From Chara braunii (lineage: Eukaryota > Plantae > Charophyceae), in the NCBI GenBank assembly GCA_003427395.1, contig BFEA01000031.1, positions 833,528 through 897,527 on the forward strand: 64,000 nucleotides of DNA, read 5' to 3'. Position 1 is the stretch's first letter, and the number at the start of each line of letters is the position of its first letter. Positions 49-63,042 of this stretch are shown here, in pieces. Under the pieces are notes generated by a model. That model searched no databases. It had not been told where the DNA came from and saw only the letters and a list, made by a program, of their open reading frames with translations. The position numbers and the translations under genes are program-made.

Positions 49-113
49 GTCCGTCGGGACATCCGTTAAAATTGGAACAATACAGAGGAGACTTGCATGG
101 CTCCTCTACGATG
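49..113 (+). pseudogene. U6: U6 snRNA-derived fragment (5' ~65 nt, diverged)
   Basis: gtccgtcgggacatccgttaaaattggaacaatacagaggagacttgcatggc matches the plant U6 5' end GTCCCTTCGGGGACATCCGATAAAATTGGAACGATACAGAGAAGATTAGCATGGCC. Confidence 0.85.
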
Positions 114-115
114 CC

Positions 116-433
116 AAACACAGACTGTGGAGTTCAGCGTGCACGCGAGCTGGTGGGTGTTTTGACCCACGGGACAGAAGAAACCTGAGTGGTGGGGACC
201 CTCTGCTGTAGGCACCGTCCGTCGACCACGATCTGCTATGAGAGGTTGAGTGTGAGAATGCCCGTTGGGATCCGAAAGATGGTGAACTATGCTTGAGCAG
301 AACGGGCCAGGGGCACTGTGGCGGAGGCATGCCGCAACGCCAACGCGTACATCGTCCGTCCAACTTGGGTACAGGGACGAAAAACTAATCATAGCGGGCT
401 CCCTCCAAAGTTTTCCTATGAAATAGCAGGAGT
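116..433 (+). pseudogene. Diverged 25S/28S LSU rRNA fragment
   Basis: Colinear LSU motifs: aaacacagac..., ccgaaagatggtgaactatgcttgagc, acttgggtacagggacgaaaaactaatc, ccctccaaagtttt; many substitutions. Confidence 0.85.
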
Positions 434-1235
434 TGTTGGATAGTGTTGCTACATGACGGTGGGACCGCGTGGTGAATGAGGTCGACATCAACAGGCGAGT
501 GAAGGCAATGGCGGACGAGTAGTTGAAAAGCGGAAGGAAATCCCACTCCTTCAATCCTACTTGGGATAAGGCAGGGGGAAGGATGAAGTTGCGCTATTTA
601 GGCCGGATGACCATGAATCAGCAATCAAATTTGGACAAGAATTAGTGGGGGAGAAGGTAAAGAGAAAACGGGGAGCGCAGGGGTGTTGGAGAAGTGTATA
701 TGGCGGGTGTGAGCAAACAAATATCTCGCTCGATTCTCGATGGAATCGAGCGTGGGAGGGGGCTAACCCAAGGTTCTTGGCCATGTCGAATATGATAGGG
801 TTGACCGATTCCGCGTTGGGGGTATAGGTTTTGTGGTGCAACAACTCTGAGTTGTGTAGGGAGAGGAGGCTTGCAACAACGATGCGTCCGACCGCATTCT
901 AGCGGAAGATTCAGTCTCATTTTGCATATTAGGATAAAAATGGAGTGGGACCCATATTCACGTGACCCACTTGTCATTATGGTCGTCATAGTTGTCGACA
1001 CGGCATCTGATCCAGATCAAGATCATGTTCGTGATAGCCATGCTCGTCTTGGTCCTCGTCTCAACGAGCGCTAGATGGTCGTCGTGATCGCATCGTGGTC
1101 ATCTCCGTCAGGGTGCAAGTTGTCATCATCACCCTTATCTCGTTGCTCACCGCTATCTCGACAACGTCCTGCTGATCATCATCAAAGTTTCTCGTTCCGT
1201 TGACGGTCTCATTCTTGTGCGTAGCTGCTTATCAT

Positions 1236-17334: not shown

Positions 17335-17427
17335 ACAAACAGAACTGCCCGGTAAACCGTAGGCAGAGAGAGAGAAAAGGACAACAAACGAGGGGCTGTG
17401 ACAAACTGTTTCGTTGGAGTTTCACCG
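17335..17427 (+). repeat. ~95-bp dispersed repeat, copy 1 (others at ~18600-18693 + and ~63483-63570 -)
   Basis: acaaacag...ctgcccgg...taggcagagag...ggacaacaaacgaggggctg.gacaaactgtttcgt.ggagttt in three copies. Confidence 0.8.
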
Positions 17428-18725
17428 ACTCATCAGGAGGCTGAACCCTCAACAGTCTGCAGAATCCCCTCACTGATTACACTGTAAATGATAATCTACC
17501 TTAACCAAAATCAAAGTAGACTNNNNNNNNNNNNNNNNNNNNNNNNNNNNNNNNNNNNNNNNNNNNNNNNNNNNNNNNNNNNNNNNNNNNNNNNNNNNNN
17601 NNNNNNNNNNNNNNNNNNNNNNNNNNNNNNNNNNNNNNNNNNNNNNNNNNNNNNNNNNNNNNNNNNNNNNNNNNNNNNNNNNNNNNNNNNNNNNNNNNNN
17701 NNNNNNNNNNNNNNNNNNNNNNNNNNNNNNNNNNNNNNNNNNNNNNNNNNNNNNNNNNNNNNNNNNNNNNNNNNNNNNNNNNNNNNNNNNNNNNNNNNNN
17801 NNNNNNNNNNNNNNNNNNNNNNNNNNNNNNNNNNNNNNNNNNNNNNNNNNNNNNNNNNNNNNNNNNNNNNNNTCAACAGTCTGCAGAATCCCCTCACTGA
17901 TTACACTGTAAATGATAATCTACCTTAACCAAAATCAAAGTAGACTATCACTCACCCACACCAGATGGAAAACTCTACAGACTGTCGGTTCACACCCCAT
18001 CACAAGCCAGCAAAACATTTCCCGTTGTTCGGCCTGCATGGGGGCGGTGCTTTTATGTGGGAATCGTCATCCGGGATTGCCTTTTATACCGGTCCTCCGT
18101 TTTTTTTATGATGTCCCGGTACGAATTGCTTACGATGACGCCGAATAGGAATGTCGAACAAGGCCATCTGCTCTGTATAGATATGTATCTGGGACTTCTT
18201 TTGATTTCTTTGCAGACAAGAATGTCTGACATCCTGGTTGGTCTTGTCCCGTCGTTTGGCCTGTGTATGTTGGGGCGGTGCTTGCATGTGGGACTTGTCA
18301 TCTGGGATCTGTTTTGTTGCCCCCTGTTCTGTTTTATTTGGCTGTTCCCTTCCTCTTTTCTTTGCCTCTTTGCCTTTTGGCTGTGTGCAAGTGGGTCGAT
18401 ATGACACACGGGGGTGGGGGCAGCCGCCGCTCAACCTACATCCACGTGGGCGGCCTTGTACGCAAGAGGTTCTGAACAGGGGGAGCTATAAGGAAGAAGA
18501 TAAAAAACTGAATTCATTTTTTCTTGTTTTTCTTTCCTTTTTCCTTTTTGTTCTTTTTGTTCGCATTTGCGCTCTGATACTCTTGTGACAATATATATTG
18601 ACAAACAGAGCTGCCCGGAGAACCATAGGCAGAGAGGGAGAAGAGGACAACAAACGAGGGGCTGGGACAAACTGTTTCGTCGGAGTTTCACCAAGTCATA
18701 TATATTTCTTCTCTTTTATTAATCT

Positions 18726-34509: not shown

Positions 34510-34808
34510 GGAGGGACCGCTTGGCAATTAGTAAGGGAGCTTGCATCTCAGTTGAGAAAGCAGAAGATTCGATAACTCGGTGCAGCTACATGAAAAGACG
34601 GAACACGCTGCCAATACAATACGGTGCCAAGCCAACCATAGAACAGTCAGGTCACTTAACGAGAGAGTGGCGGTCCTCAATGTGAGGTAGGATAGAACGG
34701 GAGTGGGGGTGCGCCAGGGAACATCGACAGGGGGGATGGGACGGGTCTCGTGAGGGAATGGACCCAGGAAAAATGAAAAAGAAGAAGAGGCAAACAATTG
34801 ACATCCAT

Positions 34809-34932
34809 GTCCTTCAGGACATCCGTTAAAATTGGAATGATACAGAGAAGATCAGCATGGCCCCTGCACAAGGATGACATCATGACACGCATAAATCGAG
34901 AAATGGTCCAAATTAGTGAACAAAAAGAAAAA
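34809..34932 (+). pseudogene. U6: Full-length U6 retrocopy with 8-nt insertion, A-rich tail and candidate TSD
   Basis: Complete plant U6 through aaatggtccaaatt; TSD gacatccat (34800-34808) / gacacccat (34933-34941). Confidence 0.88.
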
Positions 34933-35661
34933 GACACCCATCCATCGAATGACAGGAAACAACTGAGACCCGTCCATCACCGACGGCAGCAAACAATTGA
35001 ACAGGTACAGACAGATGAGGACAATCCGCAGTCAATAGAAGCAATCAGGGCATCATCATACTTGCACTTTCCGGGACGTATCTGACCGCAATTACGGCCA
35101 CGCCCGGATGCATCTGACTGCAATCAAGTCCAGAACTCAGTTGAAAAAGTCCTAGTGTGAGTCTGCACTGAATTATCTTCCAATGGAGGGAAAAACTACT
35201 GATGACTGACTGTAATAAAGAGTATTAAAGCCTCATTTTTCTTTTCTATTGTTATATTTTCGCATCTGGCATGAAAGAATATATGGTTGCAAATCATCAA
35301 TCAGGACCCAAGAAAGACAGGACATCATTTTCCTTGTCCAACCCCAACCCCTCGCACAACTTTGCTGAGTACCAAGAAGATCTTATGGACTGGTCATTGA
35401 TAAAGGACCCCTCTTTGTTGATTCATCTCGGCGAGCAGCAACAGATACCAGGGTTTAATAACCATAAGGAGATATCAGCAGACGAAATATGGTGCCATGC
35501 CATGCAACCATGAAAGCTCTCAGCATATATGCTTGGACATCCCATGAATAGGCCACAGACTTGTGTGCAACAGGCTTCGTACTGTGTGCTGGTGGTCCGC
35601 CAGAAAGATCAAATCTGGGAATAACAGACGCCATGTAAAGGTCAATGCTGAGTCAACCAAC

Positions 35662-36510
35662 CTACCCTTTTCTTTTATCGGAATGAGAAGGATTTTCAAA
35701 GGCCTCTTCGCGAAGGAAGTTCTGTGTATGAATGACAACATCACCCACGGTCCCGAGCCGCAATCGCGTGCCTTTCGGATTCACGTTACGGGGACCTGCG
35801 ATATGAGGTTGTTCCTCGTCGATGTTCTCTAAGCTTGCGCAGGTTCCGACGTTTCCTCTTGATTGCCCGGCGGGATCGGTATCATACATAACGGTGGATG
35901 ATGACGATGTCAATGTCAACCCTCTTGCAACCCGGGCGACATTCAACGGCAGCGCGATTACGTCTGAGTCGTCCTCTGGGTCGAGAAGTTTACCCGCAGC
36001 TCGTTTCGCTTCCCTTCGCGCTTCCCTATGCTTCCGTTCGCGAATCTTCTTCCTTCTCCATGCCGCCTGGATGGCACATGCAGCCCACGTCTGCCATTGC
36101 TGAGAATAACATCGTAGGGTGTGCTGGATCTCTTTCGAGTGCAAACGGCGGAACTGACTGGCAACATACTTGAGGTCGTCAGCGCCAAGGGAAAACGCCT
36201 CCACTTCGTCCAGAATGAGCACTCGCCGGGAGGACTTTGGCAAGCTGTCATGTTGGCTTTTTGGCTCGAGTGCCCACGTCAGCAGCTCCTCACCACAGAA
36301 ATCGCCAGCCCGTAATTGTCTGGTATTCAGAAAACCCGTCCGGCCACCATTCGTCGTCGAGCTCTCCATCCGTCCCTTAATGATGAAAAGCATTGACTGT
36401 ACTGGGTCGTCCTCACGAATCATCACCGTGCCTTCCACGAACATAGCTGGCTGTAGACACAAACAGATTGCATCTTGCAGGTTGCTGTCCATCTTCTCAA
36501 ACAGGGGGAC
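35662..36510 (-). CDS. CNGC: Cyclic nucleotide-gated ion channel, CNBD/CaM-binding IQ exon (probably last coding exon)
   Basis: VPLFEKMD...IREDDPVQSMLFIIKGRMESSTTNGGRTGF...GDFCGEELLTWAL...VASQFRRLHSK...TWAACAIQAAWRR; AG acceptor at 36511-36512. Confidence 0.95.
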   Translation of the reverse strand, partial: VPLFEKMDSNLQDAICLCLQPAMFVEGTVMIREDDPVQSMLFIIKGRMESSTTNGGRTGFLNTRQLRAGDFCGEELLTWALEPKSQHDSLPKSSRRVLILDEVEAFSLGADDLKYVASQFRRLHSKEIQHTLRCYSQQWQTWAACAIQAAWRRKKIRERKHREARREAKRAAGKLLDPEDDSDVIALPLNVARVARGLTLTSSSSTVMYDTDPAGQSRGNVGTCASLENIDEEQPHIAGPRNVNPKGTRLRLGTVGDVVIHTQNFLREEAFENPSHSDKRKG

Positions 36511-36519
36511 CTACGGATG

Positions 36520-36853
36520 AAGCATAGAGAGAAGGGCGGAACACAACAAAGTGTCAGAAAGGAATACAGGAGGGGTGAAATCACCGAGCCCAGCTCGCTG
36601 AACGGTACACACATGTCACTGTTGTTAAACGGATCAAGGGATCGAGTCCTCCTGGAATCGAAGCCATGCAATACGTTTAGGTGTTACAAGCATAGAGAGA
36701 AGGGAGGAACGAAACAGCATGAGAAAGGAATACAGGAGGTGTGAAATGACCCAGCCCAGGCCGCTGAATGGTACACACGTGTAACTCTTGTGAAACAGAT
36801 GACAGGATCGGGTCCTCCTGGAATCAAAGGCATGCAACACGGTTAGGGGCTAC
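36520..36853. repeat. Two-copy ~167-bp tandem duplication next to the CNGC splice acceptor
   Basis: aagcatagagagaaggg...cctcctggaatc...ttagg repeated. Confidence 0.85.
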
Positions 36854-36854
36854 A

Positions 36855-37100
36855 CCCTTGAAAATTATGTATAGGGCCGTCCTCTTGAATCATCTCAGTG
36901 TCTTGTACAAACATGGCTGGTTCCAGAAACACAAACAGATTGCATCTTGCAGGTTGATATCCTTTCCCCCCCCCCCCCCCCCCCCCCCCCCCGCGAATCT
37001 TCAGTGGAGGGTGCCGCCTGAGGTAGTGATAAGAGCATCCACCTCAAGTGGGCCCATTCATGAAGGCTCCATTCTCAAACAGAGGGATCTATGAAAGCAA
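36855..37100 (-). pseudogene. Degenerate duplicate of the CNGC exon 5' end and acceptor, interrupted by a ~107-bp insert
   Basis: cacaaacagattgcatcttgcaggttg identical to ~36458-36484; ttctcaaacagagggatcta mirrors the exon start. Confidence 0.8.
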
Positions 37101-37334
37101 ACACAGATATTTTTTTTTTTTTTTTTTTTTAAGAAGAAGAAAACCACGCTGTCTTAGATAAGGGAAGAGATCTAAATCATCAAATATATAACCCCAAGAA
37201 GGAAAATACTGAAATAGGGAAGAAAAAAAAAGGGAAAAAAAGGGAAAAAAAAGGAAGGAAAATAGGGAGGAGAGGGGAGGACATACAGAAGAACCTCAAG
37301 TTGCAGGTTGCGGTCAATGGTCTCAAACACACGT

Positions 37335-37410
37335 ATTTACTATTCAGTATTTACTATTTACTATTTACTATTTACTATTCAGTATTTACTATTTACTATT
37401 TACTATTTAC
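37335..37410. repeat. (TATTTAC)n minisatellite
   Basis: Seen directly. Confidence 0.9.
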
Positions 37411-37658
37411 AAAATGAAACAAGCTTATAGACACAAAGGGAATAACGTGATAGGACTCTCGTCCTATTTCGTTCGTCTTCAATATTGGAGTAACAGTTGA
37501 TAGAGACGGTTGGGGATATTTGTACTCTCCCGAAAGGGGAAAAAAAGAAATATAGACGATCGAGAAGGAAATATGGACCCGGTTTCCAGCTTTTCATTGT
37601 TGCCGTTATTGTAGCATGCTGGACCAAGTCTTCACTGTTGTACTTATTTTGGGATGCT

Positions 37659-37818
37659 GTCCTTCGGGACATCCGTTTAAATCGGAAGTTGGAAGGATAC
37701 AGAGAAGATTAGCATGGCCCCTGCACGAGGATGACATCATGACATGCATAAATCGAGAAATGGTCCAAATTTTTACACGTGAACAGCCGAAAAAAAAGAA
37801 AAAATGAACAGAAAAAAG
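37659..37818 (+). pseudogene. U6: Full-length U6 retrocopy with the same 8-nt insertion, A-rich tail and candidate TSD
   Basis: U6 match through ggtccaaattttt; TSD ttattttgggatgct (37644-37658) / ttattccgggacgcc (37819-37833), differing only by C/T. Confidence 0.88.
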
Positions 37819-40800
37819 TTATTCCGGGACGCCGGGATCCAGTTTCCACCAGGCGCAGCTCTCCACCAAAAACAGAGATGGGGTTTCACTCCACAACTCA
37901 CCAAATGTGCAAAATGAGAATGAATCTTCCGCTAGAACATAGAAAGATATGCCGCCATATTTTGTGTCTTTTGTGCATGTTGTGAGTAGAGGAGTGAGGC
38001 CCATCTACAGAAAAGCAAGCAGAGAGAAGAAAGGAAATACACAATTTCAAGAGGGAAGCACAGTGGCAAGAAACAGACATAAAGACTAACCATGAAAGTT
38101 AGGTAGTATTACCGTAGTAATGCACAAAAGGGACTTGACGAGCCAAACGATCCATGGAGGAGTTTCAAAAAATGCAAAAGCATGAAGTCCAGAGGACAAA
38201 TAGGACCTACAGAAGAACCTAAAGAGTGAAAGCGGTATACAGGAAGATCTGAAGATTGTAAAGGGATTACCAGAGAGTGATTTGAAATAGAAAAGAATGA
38301 GTTGAAGGCGAGAGAAGTGCTATGTGCGTTGTTGAAATCGCAATTCAGTTGAGCTCTACCATGTTGCCATAAACACGCAGAGACAACGAATCCGAACTGA
38401 CATGGAGAGAGATTCATACCACGACCAAGATAGATATGCACAGCGGAAGCTCCGGCAACCAGAAGAATTGAATATACACCATACTCGCAACTGCACGAGT
38501 CGCACAGCCGTGCGGCACGGTGCACCGCGCGAGCGTGGAGCCTGCCCGTGCACTGCACCAGTAACAATTTCTGTTTTCTTTTTTTTTCCTTTGCTGTTTT
38601 CGTAGATGCAGACGAGTGTATTAACTAAGGAAGAGATCCTGCTCAAGTACAGCAATGCAAAGTAGCCTCCTTATGGTCCTGGCTCCATATCCATTCTGGG
38701 GAGCATCAGTCCGGTTCCTATTCCCCAGGCAAGTCATAGTAACAATATTACATCATGTACCCACTCACGCATCCTTCCGTCTGGCTGAAGGATCCCTGAT
38801 CAGCATTGATTACTCCACTTGGTGGAGGATTGACCGTCAGCTCGCCTTCCCCAGTGATTCTGCTCAGAGTCCTCATCAGAGACCCTGTCAGATAGACTTG
38901 AACGCAAGAAGCAACAGGAGAATAACTGCTGTGAGTCTTAAGTGACATGACCAGCTTGGTTGTAAGTGTGCCCATGGTCATATGTCCGAACTATGTAGCT
39001 CTGAAGTCTTGAGGCTGTGCGAGATGATTGCCCTGTTCTGTCTGCAGCGGGCAGGAGCTGTGCCAGTCTTTCCATCTGAGGTGAAGTCCGTGAATGCTCG
39101 CAATGTTTCCATTGACCCGCCATACTTTTCGTGAACTTTGCCAGAATCTCTTGCTGCTTCTCCTGATTCTCCTGGAGTTGAATCCTGGCTTTCTTCCATT
39201 GGGAGAAGACTTCAGTCTCCGTTAAGGATTTGGTCATTGCCCACACCTTTTCACATGAACTGCTGGAGTTGTCAAATGCTCTGCTGCACCTTTCCTCCCA
39301 TATGACCCAGAGCGTCACCTTTCGAATCAAGCCAAACCCTACTTTATTTTCCCATTACTGGACGATTGCCCCGATTTGAGGTGCCAAACCTTTTCCCGTC
39401 AATGTGAACCCTTGGGGAAGATCAGCAGCTTGTTATCCCCAGACTAACTTTATCCGGTGCGCTCCGACTTGTTAAGGCTACCGTTTCAGGAACGTTGGTC
39501 CAGAGGAGTAGTTGGATTGGGTGTTCGGGGAAGGAAGAAGAAAACAGGTAGTCCCAGAGAGCGGATGCTCGTGCCCAGTAGTCGGTAGCGGCCTTGCATG
39601 TGATCAGGCAGTGTATGGTGTTTTCCTGTTCATGGTCTGAGCACACTGCACAGAGATCTGAGCTGTTGGGGTCATTCTTGTCTCCTTCTAATGTGTAGCC
39701 AACTGTTCACGGGTAGTGCATTGTAGGCAATGAGCCACTGTAGACTTCTTATTTTGACTGGTCGTATTGATTTGTATTTCAGCCAAGGAATTTTTGATAT
39801 TTGTCCTGCTTCCTGGCCCAGTATCTTGTTCCACCTAACTTTGATAACTGGATCTGGGTCATTCGTCTTTAGTAGCATTCTGTAGCCCATTTTGACTGTG
39901 TATTGTGTAATGTGAATAGGAGTTTTGCAAAATCTGTTGTTACCGGGGGACCATGCCCACTCATCTGGGTAAAACTCTAGTTCTTGGATTGGTGTTTCAA
40001 TTTGGAAGATTGTTTTTGGCCAATTACCTAATAAGCTAATACTCTTATTTTTCGGAGTGTGAATGAGCTCAGGACTGACTGTTGTGGATCTGTGTTGTAG
40101 ATGCATGGAGACTCGGGATTGGTTAGGTCTATCGGGAATGAGGTGAAGACCCCCGAAAAGTCTGATCACGGAGGTCTGTGGAAGAATTTGTATGCCCTTG
40201 CAGGCATCGTCTCCTGTGGGGGTACTCCCCATTCGCCTGGCTTCCAAGAGAAGTTCTCTTTGAGTAAGTCTTTCCATCCATCTGAGATACTATTAATCAC
40301 TGTTTGCAGGTTTTCATCTCTGTAGTGGCAGCCCTTCATGCGTGATTTAATCGTTTCCTAGTCAATCCAGTCCTTTCTCTCTTCATCCCAAATGTGGCTG
40401 ATCCTCCATACTCCATGCTTGATCCACGAGAGCCATCGCTGGCTGCCTGAAAGTGAGAGTGAGTGATCACTTGCGCCTCTGACACAGGGGTTCCCTAATA
40501 GGGGTTGGCGTAAGACTTCCTCTTAAGATTTGGGTTTCTTGTTCTTTTGGGGCATAATTTCTGTCCATACAGAGTTGCACGCGCCAACGGTCGGTGCCCC
40601 CCAGGCGGTCGTCTGCCGACCGCTGAACGGTCAGTCGGTCGGCGCTGACATGTCGGCGGAAGTAGGGCTGCCGCACTTTCCTGGGGTGGCGGTCCGACCC
40701 GCAAAGGCCCCGTTTTTGGGGTCTGGGCCGGTCAGGGGGTGGTCGGCCATTCGCCCTCCGACCGTAGACACCGACATTCCCACGGTCGGTGAAGTTCAAA

Positions 40801-51769: not shown

Positions 51770-54700
51770 GTTTTTTTTTTTTTTTTTTTTCTTAAACAGG
51801 TCCTTGTGGCTCTGGCTCCATTTCCATTCTAAGGAGCATCAGTCTGGTTCCTATTCCACCAGCAAGTCAAAATAAAATATTACATCATGAACACACATAC
51901 GCTTCCTTCCATCTGGATGAAGGACCCCTGACCAGCATTGAGTACTCCAGCATCGTGGAGGATTGACTATCAGTTTACCCTGCTTCTCCCTTTCCTCTCA
52001 GGACCACCATAATGGCCTGCCAGATAGAACGTGAATGTCAAGAAAGGACCTGGACGCTACAAAGGTTGTCGATTTTGTCCAACCTTTGATCCCCGCCCAT
52101 ATGCTACGTGAGATCCCTACCAATCTGATCCCTGTTTGCCTTGAATGTCTAAACCCTAAACCCTAACCCACACCTATAGTTTTGAAGAGACTCCCAATTC
52201 ATAAACCCTAAACCCTAGCTAATCTTGTGTGTCTTTTCCTAACTATGAAGGCTCTACTTCAAGACCACCGTTGTTGCTCTCCTACTCATGCTTTTAAATA
52301 GCCACACTTAAGCCCCAAACCCCATCTCACTTCTTTGAACCATTGAACCCTAAACCCCTATTTTTTAATCTCTATCCTCCTGCTCCCTATTTATCTTGTT
52401 TCTGTACCTACCCTGGCCCTAAACCCTAGACCGCCTTAATCTATTTTTCCATCTATTCGCTGTGAAGATTCTGCTGTTGCCTGCCATAAGTGCTTCTCGG
52501 ATATTCATCTAGGCCCAGATTGGAAAAGGATCTTCGTGTACCTGAGTGTTCATCCGACCGAAAGACTTGACTGAGTTGTGCTACTCTTTCCATCTTAAAG
52601 TGTGCCCATTTAGCCAGGCCACTTTGTCATCAACCAACCATACCCATCTGAATTTGGCAAGAGTCACCTGTTCTGTCTCTGGACTGTTCTGCACCCGGAG
52701 TTTCACCTTCCTCCATTGACATAAAATTTCCGCTTCAATCATCTCTTTGGTTGCCGCCCACACTTTCTCCCGTGGGTTTTTCGTGCCCTCCAGAGTTCTG
52801 CTGCACCTCTCCTTCCAAATGACCCAAAGCGAAACCTTTCGCACCATCCCGAACCAGATTTTCTTTGATTTGTCGAGGTTAGAGGGTAAGTTAGTCCATA
52901 GGAGTAGTTGGCGGGGGTGCTCTGGGAGGGGAGAAAGGAACAAACTATCCCAAAGAGCTGCTACTCTTGCCCAATACTGTGGCTTCTTTGCAGTTAATTA
53001 GGCAATGTAACATGTCTTCCTGTTGTTGATCAGAGAAGACTAAACAGACATCAGAGCTGGTTGGGTCGTTCTTTCTTCTGATGACATCTAACCACTGGTT
53101 AACCGGTCGAGCCACATAGGTTATGAGCCATTGCATGCTTCTGATTTTTATAGGTCTTATCGTTTTGTACTTCTTCCGTGGGATTTTTGCCATCTGGTCT
53201 GCCTCATAACCAATTAATTTGCTCCATCTTCCTTTGATTATTGGGTTTCGGTCCTTTGTTTTTAACAACATCTTATAACCCAGGTTAACTGTATAATCAT
53301 ATATTGGAATTGGTGGTTTGGCCGTTCTATTTCTTTCTGGGCGCCATGCCCATTCTGATGGGCCAAACTCAAGGTCTTGAATTGTCGTGTTTATTTGGAA
53401 GATCTTTTTAGGCCAGAGGCCTAGCGTCCTTATTTTCTGCAACGTAAACGCATTCAACACTGCTTTTTCAGGATTGATGTTCTGAATGTATTGTACATCT
53501 GTCTTAATCTTCAAAATTGGGAAGGAGGTGAATACATCCCTTGGCCCGGGTGAGGACTGCCGATGGGAGAATTGGTAGGCTCTAACTAGGGAGGATTCTT
53601 GGACCAAGGCTCCCCACTCGCCTGATTTCCATGTGAACTCTTCTTTTAGAATATCTATCCAGCTACACGGGATGCTGTGTATTATCTTTTGGAGGTTTTC
53701 GTCCTTGTGATGGAAGCCTTTCAGGCGGGTGTTGAGGTCCGCCTCGTCCAACCAGCTTTTCTTATCCTCGTTCCATATGTCCCTTACTCGCCAAACACCC
53801 TGTTTGATCCAGGATAGCCATCTATTGCCTCTGCTGGACATAATCCATGGGTGGTCCCCCTCATCTCTAATCCATGGATTACCGAAGAGAGGTTGCCTGA
53901 GCACTTCTTCATTAAACGTTGGTTTGCCTAGCTTTTCTGGCATGATCTCTCTCCACATCCGTAGCTGAGCAGCCCAGTACGGGTGGGAGGATTATGTGGG
54001 GGTTAGTCTCCCCTGGCTTCTTTGACCCTTAGGGATCCAGTCTTTGTTCATTACCCAGAACAGTCCTGACGTATTTGGAGGGGACTCAATCTTGGCCAGA
54101 CTTCTAATACTGTCTTGTTCCAGGGCAAAGACTGTTTAGACAACAACTTGACTGCCCACTTGATTTGGAGGGCTTTCGTCTCTTGTTTGGGTTCTATAAT
54201 ACCCAGTCCTCCCAGGGACGGTTTCCTTGTGATAAAGTGCCATGCTATCTTAGGGATGTAATTCTCTCTGCTCGGGTCCCCTGCCCACAGGTAGGCTATG
54301 GCTTTCCTATTCAGGTCTTTGATTGTCTAATCTGGTATAGTTCAGATTGAGGCAATGTACCACATCATTGAGAATATGGAGGTGTTGATGGTAAGTGCTC
54401 TGCCCATTATTGATGTGAACGCTTGACTACATTTCCCCATTTTATTAATTTGGCTAGTTAGAAGGTTATGTGCCATCTGGGGTGTCGGGCCTTCTTTCGT
54501 TACTTGGATTCCTAGATATCTCGTTGGCAGCTTTGACCTTTCTCATGACATCTGGCTCTCCGGACTTTGGAGATGTGGCAACGTTTCATCTGAAAGCCAC
54601 CAACATATCGTCTTGCCCCAATTTATCTTCATTTATGAGGCTAGTCTGAAGGCTTCCATTGCCCTGACCAGGGCAGCTATTGACGAGTTGGAGGCTCTGA

Positions 54701-60020: not shown

Positions 60021-60184
60021 TTGGAGGTGTTATAAAAACTGGATCCGTACCGGTCATGATATCCAGCCCACCTCCAGGACTGTAGCGTCCTTGAACTCAC
60101 ACCACACAAGACCAAGAGGAAGGGAAATACAAAAGGACCAAACAGAGGAATGACTTCAGATGCCACCCACATAGAGAAGCACAT

Positions 60185-60253
60185 GTCCTTCAGGACATCC
60201 GTTAAAATTGGAACGCTACAGAGAAGATTAGCATGGCCCCTGCTCAAGGATGA
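60185..60253 (+). pseudogene. U6: 3'-truncated U6 copy followed by an A-rich tract
   Basis: gtccttcaggacatccgttaaaattggaacgctacagagaagattagcatggcccctgctcaaggatga. Confidence 0.88.
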
Positions 60254-60513
60254 TGATACAGGAAGGGGAAAAAAAAATTAAAAAAATTCGGGTAAGTATG
60301 TTTCGGTCGCGAATCGCAATCGGTTTCGAATGTGGAAAACAAACACAGCCAGGTTGAAAAGGCGCTGCAAGCACGGCACGACTTTAGAGAAAAGGCGTGT
60401 CAGGTTTTCTGCAGGTGGGGGGCAGTGGTGTGCAGACTGCCGTTTCGTTTCTTTTCTTGTGCCCCTTTTTTGCGCTGCGGCCGTTTTCAAACTGCCATTT
60501 CATGTTTGTTTGT

Positions 60514-62550: not shown

Positions 62551-62907
62551 ATTTTCTTTCTTTCTTTCTTTCTTCCTCTTTTTTTTTTTTGTTTTTTTTT
62601 TTTTTTGGAATTTCCCGGCCCCTTCTATTCTGGGGGGCACCAGTCTGGTTGCTTATCACCGGCAAGCATGAGTACAAAGAAAAAAAAGGTGGAAGAACAG
62701 TGTTGAAGAAGAGTCCGCCCAACCCTTGGGGTACGAGTCACCTTCTCAAGGGGGGAACGTTCAAGTTTCAACATCTTTTTTTTTTTTTTTGGGGGGGGGG
62801 GGGTGGATTATTTAAATTTATTTCTTGATTTATGTGTGCCATCCTTCCACAGGGGCTGCACTAATCTTCTGTGTATCATTCCAATTTTAATGGATGTCCC
62901 GAAAGAC
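62551..62907 (-). mobile_element. U6 head plus LINE-like 3' tail plus poly(A) retroposed unit (U6 chimera/SINE)
   Basis: U6 62907 to ~62815; LINE-tail motif ttctggggggcaccagtctggtt...ccggcaag at ~62625-62668; T-rich tail; TSD atgacgttca (62541-62550) / atcacgttca (62908-62917). Confidence 0.8.
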
Positions 62908-63042
62908 ATCACGTTCACCAATGCACCCGTATAATCAGTATATCAAAGCATCAACCCGTCGGTATCACCGGCATCGCCATCATTGTCATCTTGTTAAGTC
63001 ATCATCAACTTCTTATTCGTTACCATCGTCCTCATTGTTGAC

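What the first reader, a model, noticed from the sequence alone, without database searches (positions are those of the whole stretch)
34800..37833. Two independent U6 retrocopies share a diagnostic 8-nt insertion and 3' extension
Seen: the copies at 34809 and 37659 both read GGATGACA-TCATGACA instead of canonical GGATGACAC. Both continue past the U6 end with gtgaaca and an A-rich tail, yet they have different flanks and different candidate TSDs (9 bp and 15 bp). Inference: they were retroposed separately from one variant master, either an amplifying U6-derived SINE subfamily or an expressed variant U6 altered at the base of the internal stem-loop.
Basis: partly seen in the sequence, partly recalled or inferred. 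Interest (0 to 1): 0.78.

Follow-up and report, generated by a model that had tools for sequence, protein, structure and literature searches.

The report
Scarred U6 copies among many retrocopies
Two neighbouring DNA copies of the splicing RNA U6, likely from the alga Chara, share an 8-base insert that is likely the scar of a cut-and-paste transposon; they likely belong to thousands of pasted-back U6 copies, a known kind of genomic fossil, and nothing yet shows a new jumping-gene family.

Summary
In detail: both copies carry an identical 8-nt insert, A-rich tails and unrelated flanks. The 9-bp TSD holds; the 15-bp one is confounded by a host repeat. The genome is Chara-like (92% protein match). 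The window holds five U6-derived pieces. Contigs of one DNA run pile about 290,000 deep on the U6 3' end against about 12 on single-copy contigs, then run into oligo(A) and mixed flanks, so the genome likely holds about 1,200-24,000 retrocopies. Copy B's 3' extension has at most 0.1% of that depth and is not a family trait. The insert's frequency could not be counted; the few upstream glimpses show normal spacing. New here: the insert reads as an 8-bp duplication with its two central bases changed, a palindrome and a microhomology, the shape of a hAT excision footprint. Best reading (0.45): one scarred, still-transcribed U6 gene was the source of both. Main rival (0.3): conversion between neighbours 2.85 kb apart. 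A self-propagating U6 SINE is not shown (0.1). The scan noted U6 chimeric retrocopies in other genomes, nothing on this insert.

The parts
34800..34808 (+). Copy A, upstream target-site duplication (9 bp)
   Evidence: 8 of 9 match to 34933-34941; anchored null 26 of 5000
34809..34914 (+). Copy A, full-length U6 retrocopy
   Evidence: Rfam RF00026 77.2 bits; no TATA-like or USE-like motif in 120 nt upstream (motifs recalled)
34873..34888 (+). Copy A, 8-bp head-to-tail duplication with both central bases changed (net insert 34880-34887, U6 position +72); footprint-like
34915..34932 (+). Copy A, short filler with GTGAAC and A-rich tail
34933..34941 (+). Copy A, downstream target-site duplication; part of a degenerate host repeat unit
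   Evidence: 12 of 14 match to the next host unit at 34965-34978
37644..37658 (+). Copy B, candidate upstream TSD (15 bp), within a degenerate ~38-bp host repeat
   Evidence: 11 of 15 to 37819-37833; 12 of 15 to the preceding host unit
37659..37774 (+). Copy B, full-length U6 retrocopy with the same insert (37737-37744), a private 7-nt near-duplication (about 37678-37696) and an intact T-run
   Evidence: Rfam 62.6 bits; alignment
37775..37818 (+). Copy B, 15-nt filler containing GTGAACAG, then A-rich tail with a second TGAACAG
   Evidence: depth at most 0.1% of the U6 3' end in run X1
37819..37833 (+). Copy B, candidate downstream TSD
35662..36513 (-). Context: last matched coding exon of a cyclic-nucleotide-gated channel gene; A lies about 0.73 kb past its stop, B in the 24-kb intron before it, both antisense
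60185..60287 (+). Copy C: U6 5' ~69 nt, then filler and A-tail; ends before the insert site, so uninformative
62776..62907 (-). Copy D: older full-length U6 copy without the insert, with filler and A-tail
49..450 (+). Copy E: U6 5' part fused to a large-subunit rRNA fragment (end approximate)
   Evidence: U6 37.5 bits, LSU_rRNA_eukarya 83.8 bits from 124

Best explanation
The two copies are A-tailed, full-length U6 copies at separate sites that were likely pasted in by a resident poly(A)-tailed LINE, and their shared 8-nt insert likely arose once, as the excision scar of a cut-and-paste transposon in a U6 gene that likely kept its upstream promoter and served as the source of both. Steps: (1, inferred) an 8-bp-TSD, hAT-type element entered one genomic U6 gene and left, and hairpin opening with microhomology joining left the duplication with changed centre; (2, inferred) the gene was still transcribed by Pol III, sometimes past its T-run; (3, inferred from known U6 turnover) the altered, 3'-extended RNA was oligoadenylated at different points, after GTGAAC in A and after GTGAACAGCCG in B; (4, inferred) LINE reverse transcriptase primed on the A-tail and inserted the copies separately; (5, shown) the copies then gained only private changes. 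They are a minor lineage inside a much larger pool of ordinary U6 retrocopies (shown as a very deep pile of A-tailed U6 3' ends; number inferred), and are likely dead.
For: Insert identical in both and shaped as an 8-bp duplication with a 3-bp palindrome centred on the complement of the unit's first base and 2 nt of microhomology, the pattern described for Ac/Ds footprints (PMC5873905, PMC1978519, passages). A and B differ at 6 sites plus indels but share only one other change from the Rfam consensus, at a CpG, so the source was nearly canonical U6. Flanks unrelated, TSD of A significant. B keeps the T-run followed by non-U6 sequence, as a read-through RNA would. At least 258 X1 contigs leave the U6 3' end into oligo(A) and mixed flanks. 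Poly(A)-ended LINE 3' ends and an RT with a weak zf-RVT match lie in the window. Poly(A)-class U6 pseudogenes and adenylated U6 are documented (PMC4476161 section 7; PMC5855946 passages).
Against: No source gene was found (no genome held) and the insert could not be counted genome-wide. If the lineage is rare, two members 2.85 kb apart is a large coincidence: B's extension has at most 0.1% of the depth, and 8 of 8 listed long X1 pieces differ from it as a plain A-tail would. The two fillers need at least two indels to be made homologous. The footprint fit is loose: 6 of 16 junction pairs would pass, and slippage or end-joining snap-back gives the same shape. None of the three upstream glimpses in X1 shows the insert.
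Confidence: 0.45

Rival explanations
1. Two ordinary U6 retrocopies landed independently near each other; the insert arose in one of them and was copied to the other, with the start of the tail, by non-allelic gene conversion or another short-range DNA copying event.
For: Same strand, 2.85 kb apart; at the window's density a neighbour this close is expected 24-37% of the time. Extension rare genome-wide. The 3' 61 nt differ at 2 sites, the 5' 45 nt at 5 sites plus an indel. Other local duplications lie between and beside the copies. Conversion between neighbouring Alus within about 10 kb is reported (as cited in PMC8230782, passages).
Against: The 3'/5' contrast is not significant (Fisher p = 0.13). 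Tails differ by several indels. Only about 100 bp of homology; whole-type Alu conversions were rare in PMC8230782 (3 of 544,034).
Confidence: 0.3
2. The insert marks a self-propagating U6-derived SINE lineage whose retrocopies are themselves transcribed and copied again.
For: Shared indel among copies is the argument used for SINEU-3 (PMC4494074, passages). Very high U6 copy load. An internally promoted human U6 variant is mentioned in PMC5855946 (passage).
Against: No LINE-derived tail: the window's LINE 3' ends lack the motif. No substitution above about 2% of depth over 37748-37763 in X1, so no sign of subfamilies there. No nested shared mutations between A and B. No listed RNA record matches B's extension cleanly.
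Confidence: 0.1
3. The same insert formed twice independently, because reverse transcriptase slips where it meets the 3' strand of the U6 internal stem-loop.
For: Four of five window copies change or break at or near this strand, and one X9 contig differs there too (table 7).
Against: Those other changes all differ in sequence; two identical 8-nt events plus a shared tail word is unlikely.
Confidence: 0.06
4. The species' functional U6 carries the insert and these are ordinary pseudogenes.
For: 2 of the 3 window copies that span the site carry it.
Against: Copy D lacks it; two loose-end consensuses of 5 contigs each and one joint in X1 read in normal register by eye (tables 5c, 7); the Rfam consensus lacks it.
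Confidence: 0.04

Closest known systems
Poly(A)-class U6 processed pseudogenes (Doucet et al. 2015, PMC4476161; sections 5, 7, 8, 9 read)
   Same: Full-length U6, A-rich tail, TSD, no upstream promoter, alongside truncated and chimeric U6 copies.
   Different: Charophyte alga, not a vertebrate; the inferred load (about 1,200-24,000) brackets or exceeds the highest count in that paper's Table 2 (2,849, dog), by a different and rougher method; TSDs do not begin with an A-run; two copies share an indel.
SINEU-3 and other SINEU families of crocodilians (Kojima 2015, PMC4494074; passages and section 21 read)
   Same: snRNA-derived retroposon; a shared internal indel taken as the sign of a master copy; no internal promoter.
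   Different: U1/U2, not U6; defined on many copies. Here the indel is seen in two linked copies only.
Ac/Ds (hAT) excision footprints (PMC5873905, PMC1978519; passages, incl. Table 1 of the latter)
   Same: Palindrome centred on the complement of the base next to the element, with microhomology at the joint; ~8-bp TSD for hAT (PMC3706591, passage).
   Different: No element with this target was seen; the footprint is read from sequence shape only.
Dada-U6 DNA transposons (Kojima and Jurka 2013, PMC3706591; passages)
   Same: DNA transposon insertion into U6 genes.
   Different: 6-bp TSD at U6 65-70; the duplication here is 8 bp and lies further 3'. Not a match.
Gene conversion among neighbouring SINEs (PMC8230782; passages; Aleshin and Zhi 2010 only as cited there)
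   Same: Nearby copies share changes without sharing flanks.
   Different: Alus are about three times longer; no conversion tract is demonstrated here.

Membership tests
Poly(A)-class U6 processed pseudogene | U6 sequence starting at +1 | tested here: met
Poly(A)-class U6 processed pseudogene | A-rich 3' end | tested here: met
   both after a short non-A filler
Poly(A)-class U6 processed pseudogene | Target-site duplication, copy A | tested here: met
   8 of 9; 26 of 5000
Poly(A)-class U6 processed pseudogene | Target-site duplication, copy B | tested here: inconclusive
   11 of 15, 11 of 5000, but host repeat unit matches 12 of 15
Poly(A)-class U6 processed pseudogene | No upstream promoter | tested here: inconclusive
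   No TATA-like or USE-like motif in 120 nt for A and B; motifs recalled from land plants, Chara's own not known to me
Poly(A)-class U6 processed pseudogene | Mammalian L1 cleavage consensus TTTT/A | tested here: inconclusive
   Neither TSD begins with an A-run; target A's could be hidden in the tail and the consensus need not apply to an algal LINE
SINE (self-propagating, incl. SINEU-type) | Diagnostic change shared by many unlinked copies: insert | not testable with these tools
SINE (self-propagating, incl. SINEU-type) | Diagnostic change shared by many copies: B-type 3' extension | tested here: not met
   206 against 291,707 depth; 8 of 8 listed long pieces are plain A-tails. A-type short tails are not bounded by this test
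SINE (self-propagating, incl. SINEU-type) | 3' tail shared with a partner LINE | tested here: not met
   Three LINE-end regions in the window lack the motif; other LINE families not seen
SINE (self-propagating, incl. SINEU-type) | Own transcription from copies (internal or flanking promoter) | tested here: inconclusive
   72 reads laid from X21, both strands, 92% running on into unlike sequence; oligo-dT library, about 6% of the run read
hAT excision footprint | 8-bp duplication altered only at the joint | tested here: met
   6 of 8 identical, mismatches at the two central bases in that register
hAT excision footprint | Palindrome centred on the complement of the flanking base, with microhomology | tested here: met
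   arm 3 nt, 2 nt shared; 6 of 16 junction pairs would pass
hAT excision footprint | An element with this target site in a U6 gene or related strain | not testable with these tools
   No genome held
Dada-U6 target site | 6-bp TSD at U6 65-70 | tested here: not met
   Duplication is 8 bp and further 3'

The most novel reading that the evidence does not exclude
A U6 gene scarred by a DNA transposon escaped splicing duty and founded a self-propagating, U6-only retroposon lineage inside a Chara genome that holds some 10,000 U6 retrocopies: a SINE-like family being born from U6, in the green lineage.
Probability: 0.12. Interest if true: 0.72.

Novelty: new member of a known kind. Interest (0 to 1): 0.36.

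Why it matters
If the leading reading holds, it is a traceable case of a variant snRNA gene made by a transposon footprint and then over-represented among retrocopies, and it shows that an algal LINE mobilises U6 on a scale like or above that of mammals, which I found no paper describing. One genome-wide count would decide between a variant source, local conversion and a young U6 SINE. If the insert is confined to these two copies, the finding is an ordinary pair of pseudogenes and only the copy load remains of note.

Tried and rejected
No whole genome is held, so no genome-wide count or master search. Two metagenome scans with U6 3' end patterns found 0 stretches; uninformative, since the organism may be absent there. 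Earlier-findings look-ups by word in this genome, by sequence and by relatives gave nothing on this insert. Folding of A and B with the insert gave different structures in the two copies, so no structural role is claimed. The 8-mer also occurs twice in LINE copies in the window, about what chance gives; rejected as a source. A likeness between B's tail and an A-rich run at 38592(-) was dropped: the aligned LINE ends lie elsewhere and lack the motif. Dada-U6 rejected on TSD length and position. Segmental duplication rejected. One comparison and one were off register and were redone. Aleshin and Zhi 2010 was not held.
Full report
Observation. Rfam finds U6 at 34809-34917 (copy A) and 37663-37774 (copy B; true start 37659), each with 8 extra nucleotides against the model. 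The insert and the 16 nt around it are identical in the two copies; it begins at U6 position +72, just 3' of the strand that closes the internal stem-loop (numbering of that stem recalled, not from a call). A and B align at 100 matches, 6 mismatches and 10 gap columns, 7 of them a near-duplication private to B. About 1 kb of flank on each side shows no collinear match next to the elements; the best hits are a 38-nt match far from them and a 15-nt A-rich match in the tails. A has a 9-bp TSD with one transition (26 of 5000 random pieces do as well when anchored). B's 15-bp candidate has four transitions (11 of 5000), but B lies in a degenerate host repeat whose previous unit matches the upstream 15-mer at 12 of 15; a TSD remains the simpler reading but is not secure. 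The shared word after the U6 end is 6-7 nt, at different offsets, with a chance level of 0.3-1.3%.

Setting. The exon between the copies encodes part of a cyclic-nucleotide-gated channel whose closest match by identity is a Chara braunii protein (92% over the whole query; the other 119 listed hits are 45-69%), so the genome is likely Chara. A lies about 0.73 kb past the stop codon and B in the preceding 24-kb intron, both antisense. The window holds three more U6-derived pieces: C (60185, leaves U6 before the insert site), D (62907, minus strand, no insert, older) and E (49, U6 5' part fused to large-subunit rRNA). Five pieces in 62.7 kb of called sequence is dense. LINE copies with RT and poly(A) ends are present.

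The wider family. Four runs were laid on the 3' part of B (37739-37900). In DNA run X1, 1,759 contigs were laid. Summed word depth is about 291,700 over 37751-37762; the eight longest listed pieces average 12.2. The tool warns that this is no copy number; allowing each genomic copy to be counted 1 to 20 times by overlapping contigs gives about 1,200-24,000 near-identical 3' ends. Extrapolating the window's three 3'-end-bearing copies to the run's 1.2 Gb gives 12,000-171,000, biased upward because the window was picked for U6. Listed loose ends behind 37771-37774 come from 258 contigs and read as oligo(A) followed by mixed sequence (agreement 0.38-0.59; 36 rows not shown), the pattern of dispersed retrocopies and not of a tandem gene array. 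For scale, the highest U6 count in 48 vertebrate genomes was 2,849 (PMC4476161, Table 2), by BLAST, so the comparison is loose.

The extension. Depth falls to 206 over 37781-37786, 0.07% of the U6 end. All 8 long X1 pieces listed (1,947 further pieces not shown) have 11-13 differences there, and B's tail has 11 non-A letters, so they are plain A-tails forced into alignment. B's extension is therefore rare. A's shorter form would be clipped in this lay and is not bounded. A filter drops some records, including apparently B's own contig, so absence is not proved. No substitution above about 2% of depth is listed over 37748-37763; a 17% A/T difference at 37769 sits at the edge of the T-run. In raw oligo-dT run X21, 72 reads were laid from about 6% of the run, on both strands, 92% running on into unlike sequence: U6 copies carried as passengers in other transcripts. 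X24 (RNA is a guess) has a very uniform U6 3' end (listed variants under 0.2% over 37748-37769) and about 0.01% depth on the extension.

The insert. Its frequency was not measured. Against its being the species norm: D lacks it, and two loose-end consensuses (5 contigs each) and one joint in X1 read in normal register by eye. For its being common: 2 of 3 informative window copies have it. Its anatomy is informative. Read as a head-to-tail 8-bp duplication (34873-34880, 34881-34888), only the two central bases differ; the second is the complement of the unit's first base and is the centre of a 3-bp palindrome, 2 nt of which overlap the left unit. Ac/Ds footprints are described as palindromic insertions centred on the complement of the base next to the element, usually with microhomology (PMC5873905; examples in PMC1978519 Table 1), and hAT TSDs are about 8 bp (PMC3706591). 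The fit is modest, since 6 of 16 junction pairs would pass and slippage or snap-back repair can mimic it, but it points to one DNA-level event. Dada-U6, the known U6-targeting transposon, uses a 6-bp site at U6 65-70 and does not match.

Mechanism. Apart from the insert, A and B share one change from the Rfam consensus, at a CpG, and otherwise carry private changes, so their common source was nearly canonical U6. I favour (0.45) a scarred U6 gene that kept its promoter, gave read-through RNA that was oligoadenylated at different points, and was copied twice by a LINE; adenylation of U6 and poly(A)-class pseudogenes are documented (PMC5855946; PMC4476161 section 7). Its weakness is the coincidence of two members of a seemingly rare lineage 2.85 kb apart. 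Local conversion (0.3) removes that coincidence: a neighbour this close is expected 24-37% of the time at the window's density, and the 3' part is somewhat more alike than the 5' part (p = 0.13). A self-propagating SINE (0.1), recurrent slips at the stem-loop (0.06) and a species-wide variant (0.04) follow. These weights are judgement, not computed.

Comparison with what is known. The copies work like, and on the features tested are, poly(A)-class U6 processed pseudogenes. They fail or cannot be tested on the SINE features. Searches for U6-derived SINEs, plant U6 pseudogenes and Chara snRNA (listings and abstract starts only) showed no report of a U6-only SINE or of a U6 expansion in Chara; the library lacks most subscription papers, I did not read the Chara genome paper, and its supplements or repeat databases may already list these copies. 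Papers seen: PMC4476161 (outline, sections 5, 7, 8, 9), PMC4494074 (passages, section 21), PMC8230782, PMC5855946, PMC3706591, PMC5873905, PMC1978519, PMC11347168, PMC10541799 (passages); no supplements were opened.

Verdict. Real observation, half-supported interpretation. New member of a known kind; interest 0.36, carried by the large U6 load in an alga and the footprint-like insert. The bold case, a U6-born SINE lineage, is not excluded (0.12).

Noticed in passing
window 49-450 (+): U6 5' part fused to a decayed large-subunit rRNA fragment (model 665 onward, 83.8 bits): a U6-rRNA chimeric retrocopy.
   Followed up: partly
window 34809, 37659, 60185, 49; X9 contig: Four of five U6 copies break or change at or shortly before the 3' strand of the internal stem-loop, a possible hot spot.
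   Followed up: partly
window 34800-34808, 37644-37658, 60176-60184, 62908-62916: Three of five copies have AT, and four of five have T, directly before U6 +1, which would extend the 5' stem; may mark the true 5' end or fold-back at the cDNA end.
   Followed up: no
window 60254-60268 (+), 62776-62815 (-): Copies C and D carry fillers ending in G or C runs before the A-tail; several other A-tails in the window are also preceded by homopolymer runs.
   Followed up: no
window 36398-36962: Local tandem duplications that include an 80%-identical piece of the channel exon (36398-36490 against 36868-36962).
   Followed up: no
window 36513-60618: 24-kb intron of the channel gene holding several decayed LINE copies and two U6 copies; a shared LINE 3' end with poly(A) at 51793(-) and 20555(-).
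   Followed up: partly
window 17403-17458 (-): Type III hammerhead match below the gathering score (38 bits), next to a repeat also present at 18591 and 63483.
   Followed up: no
window 37835-37870: Sequence just downstream of B is itself a low-copy repeat (X1 depth about 147, also in RNA runs).
   Followed up: no
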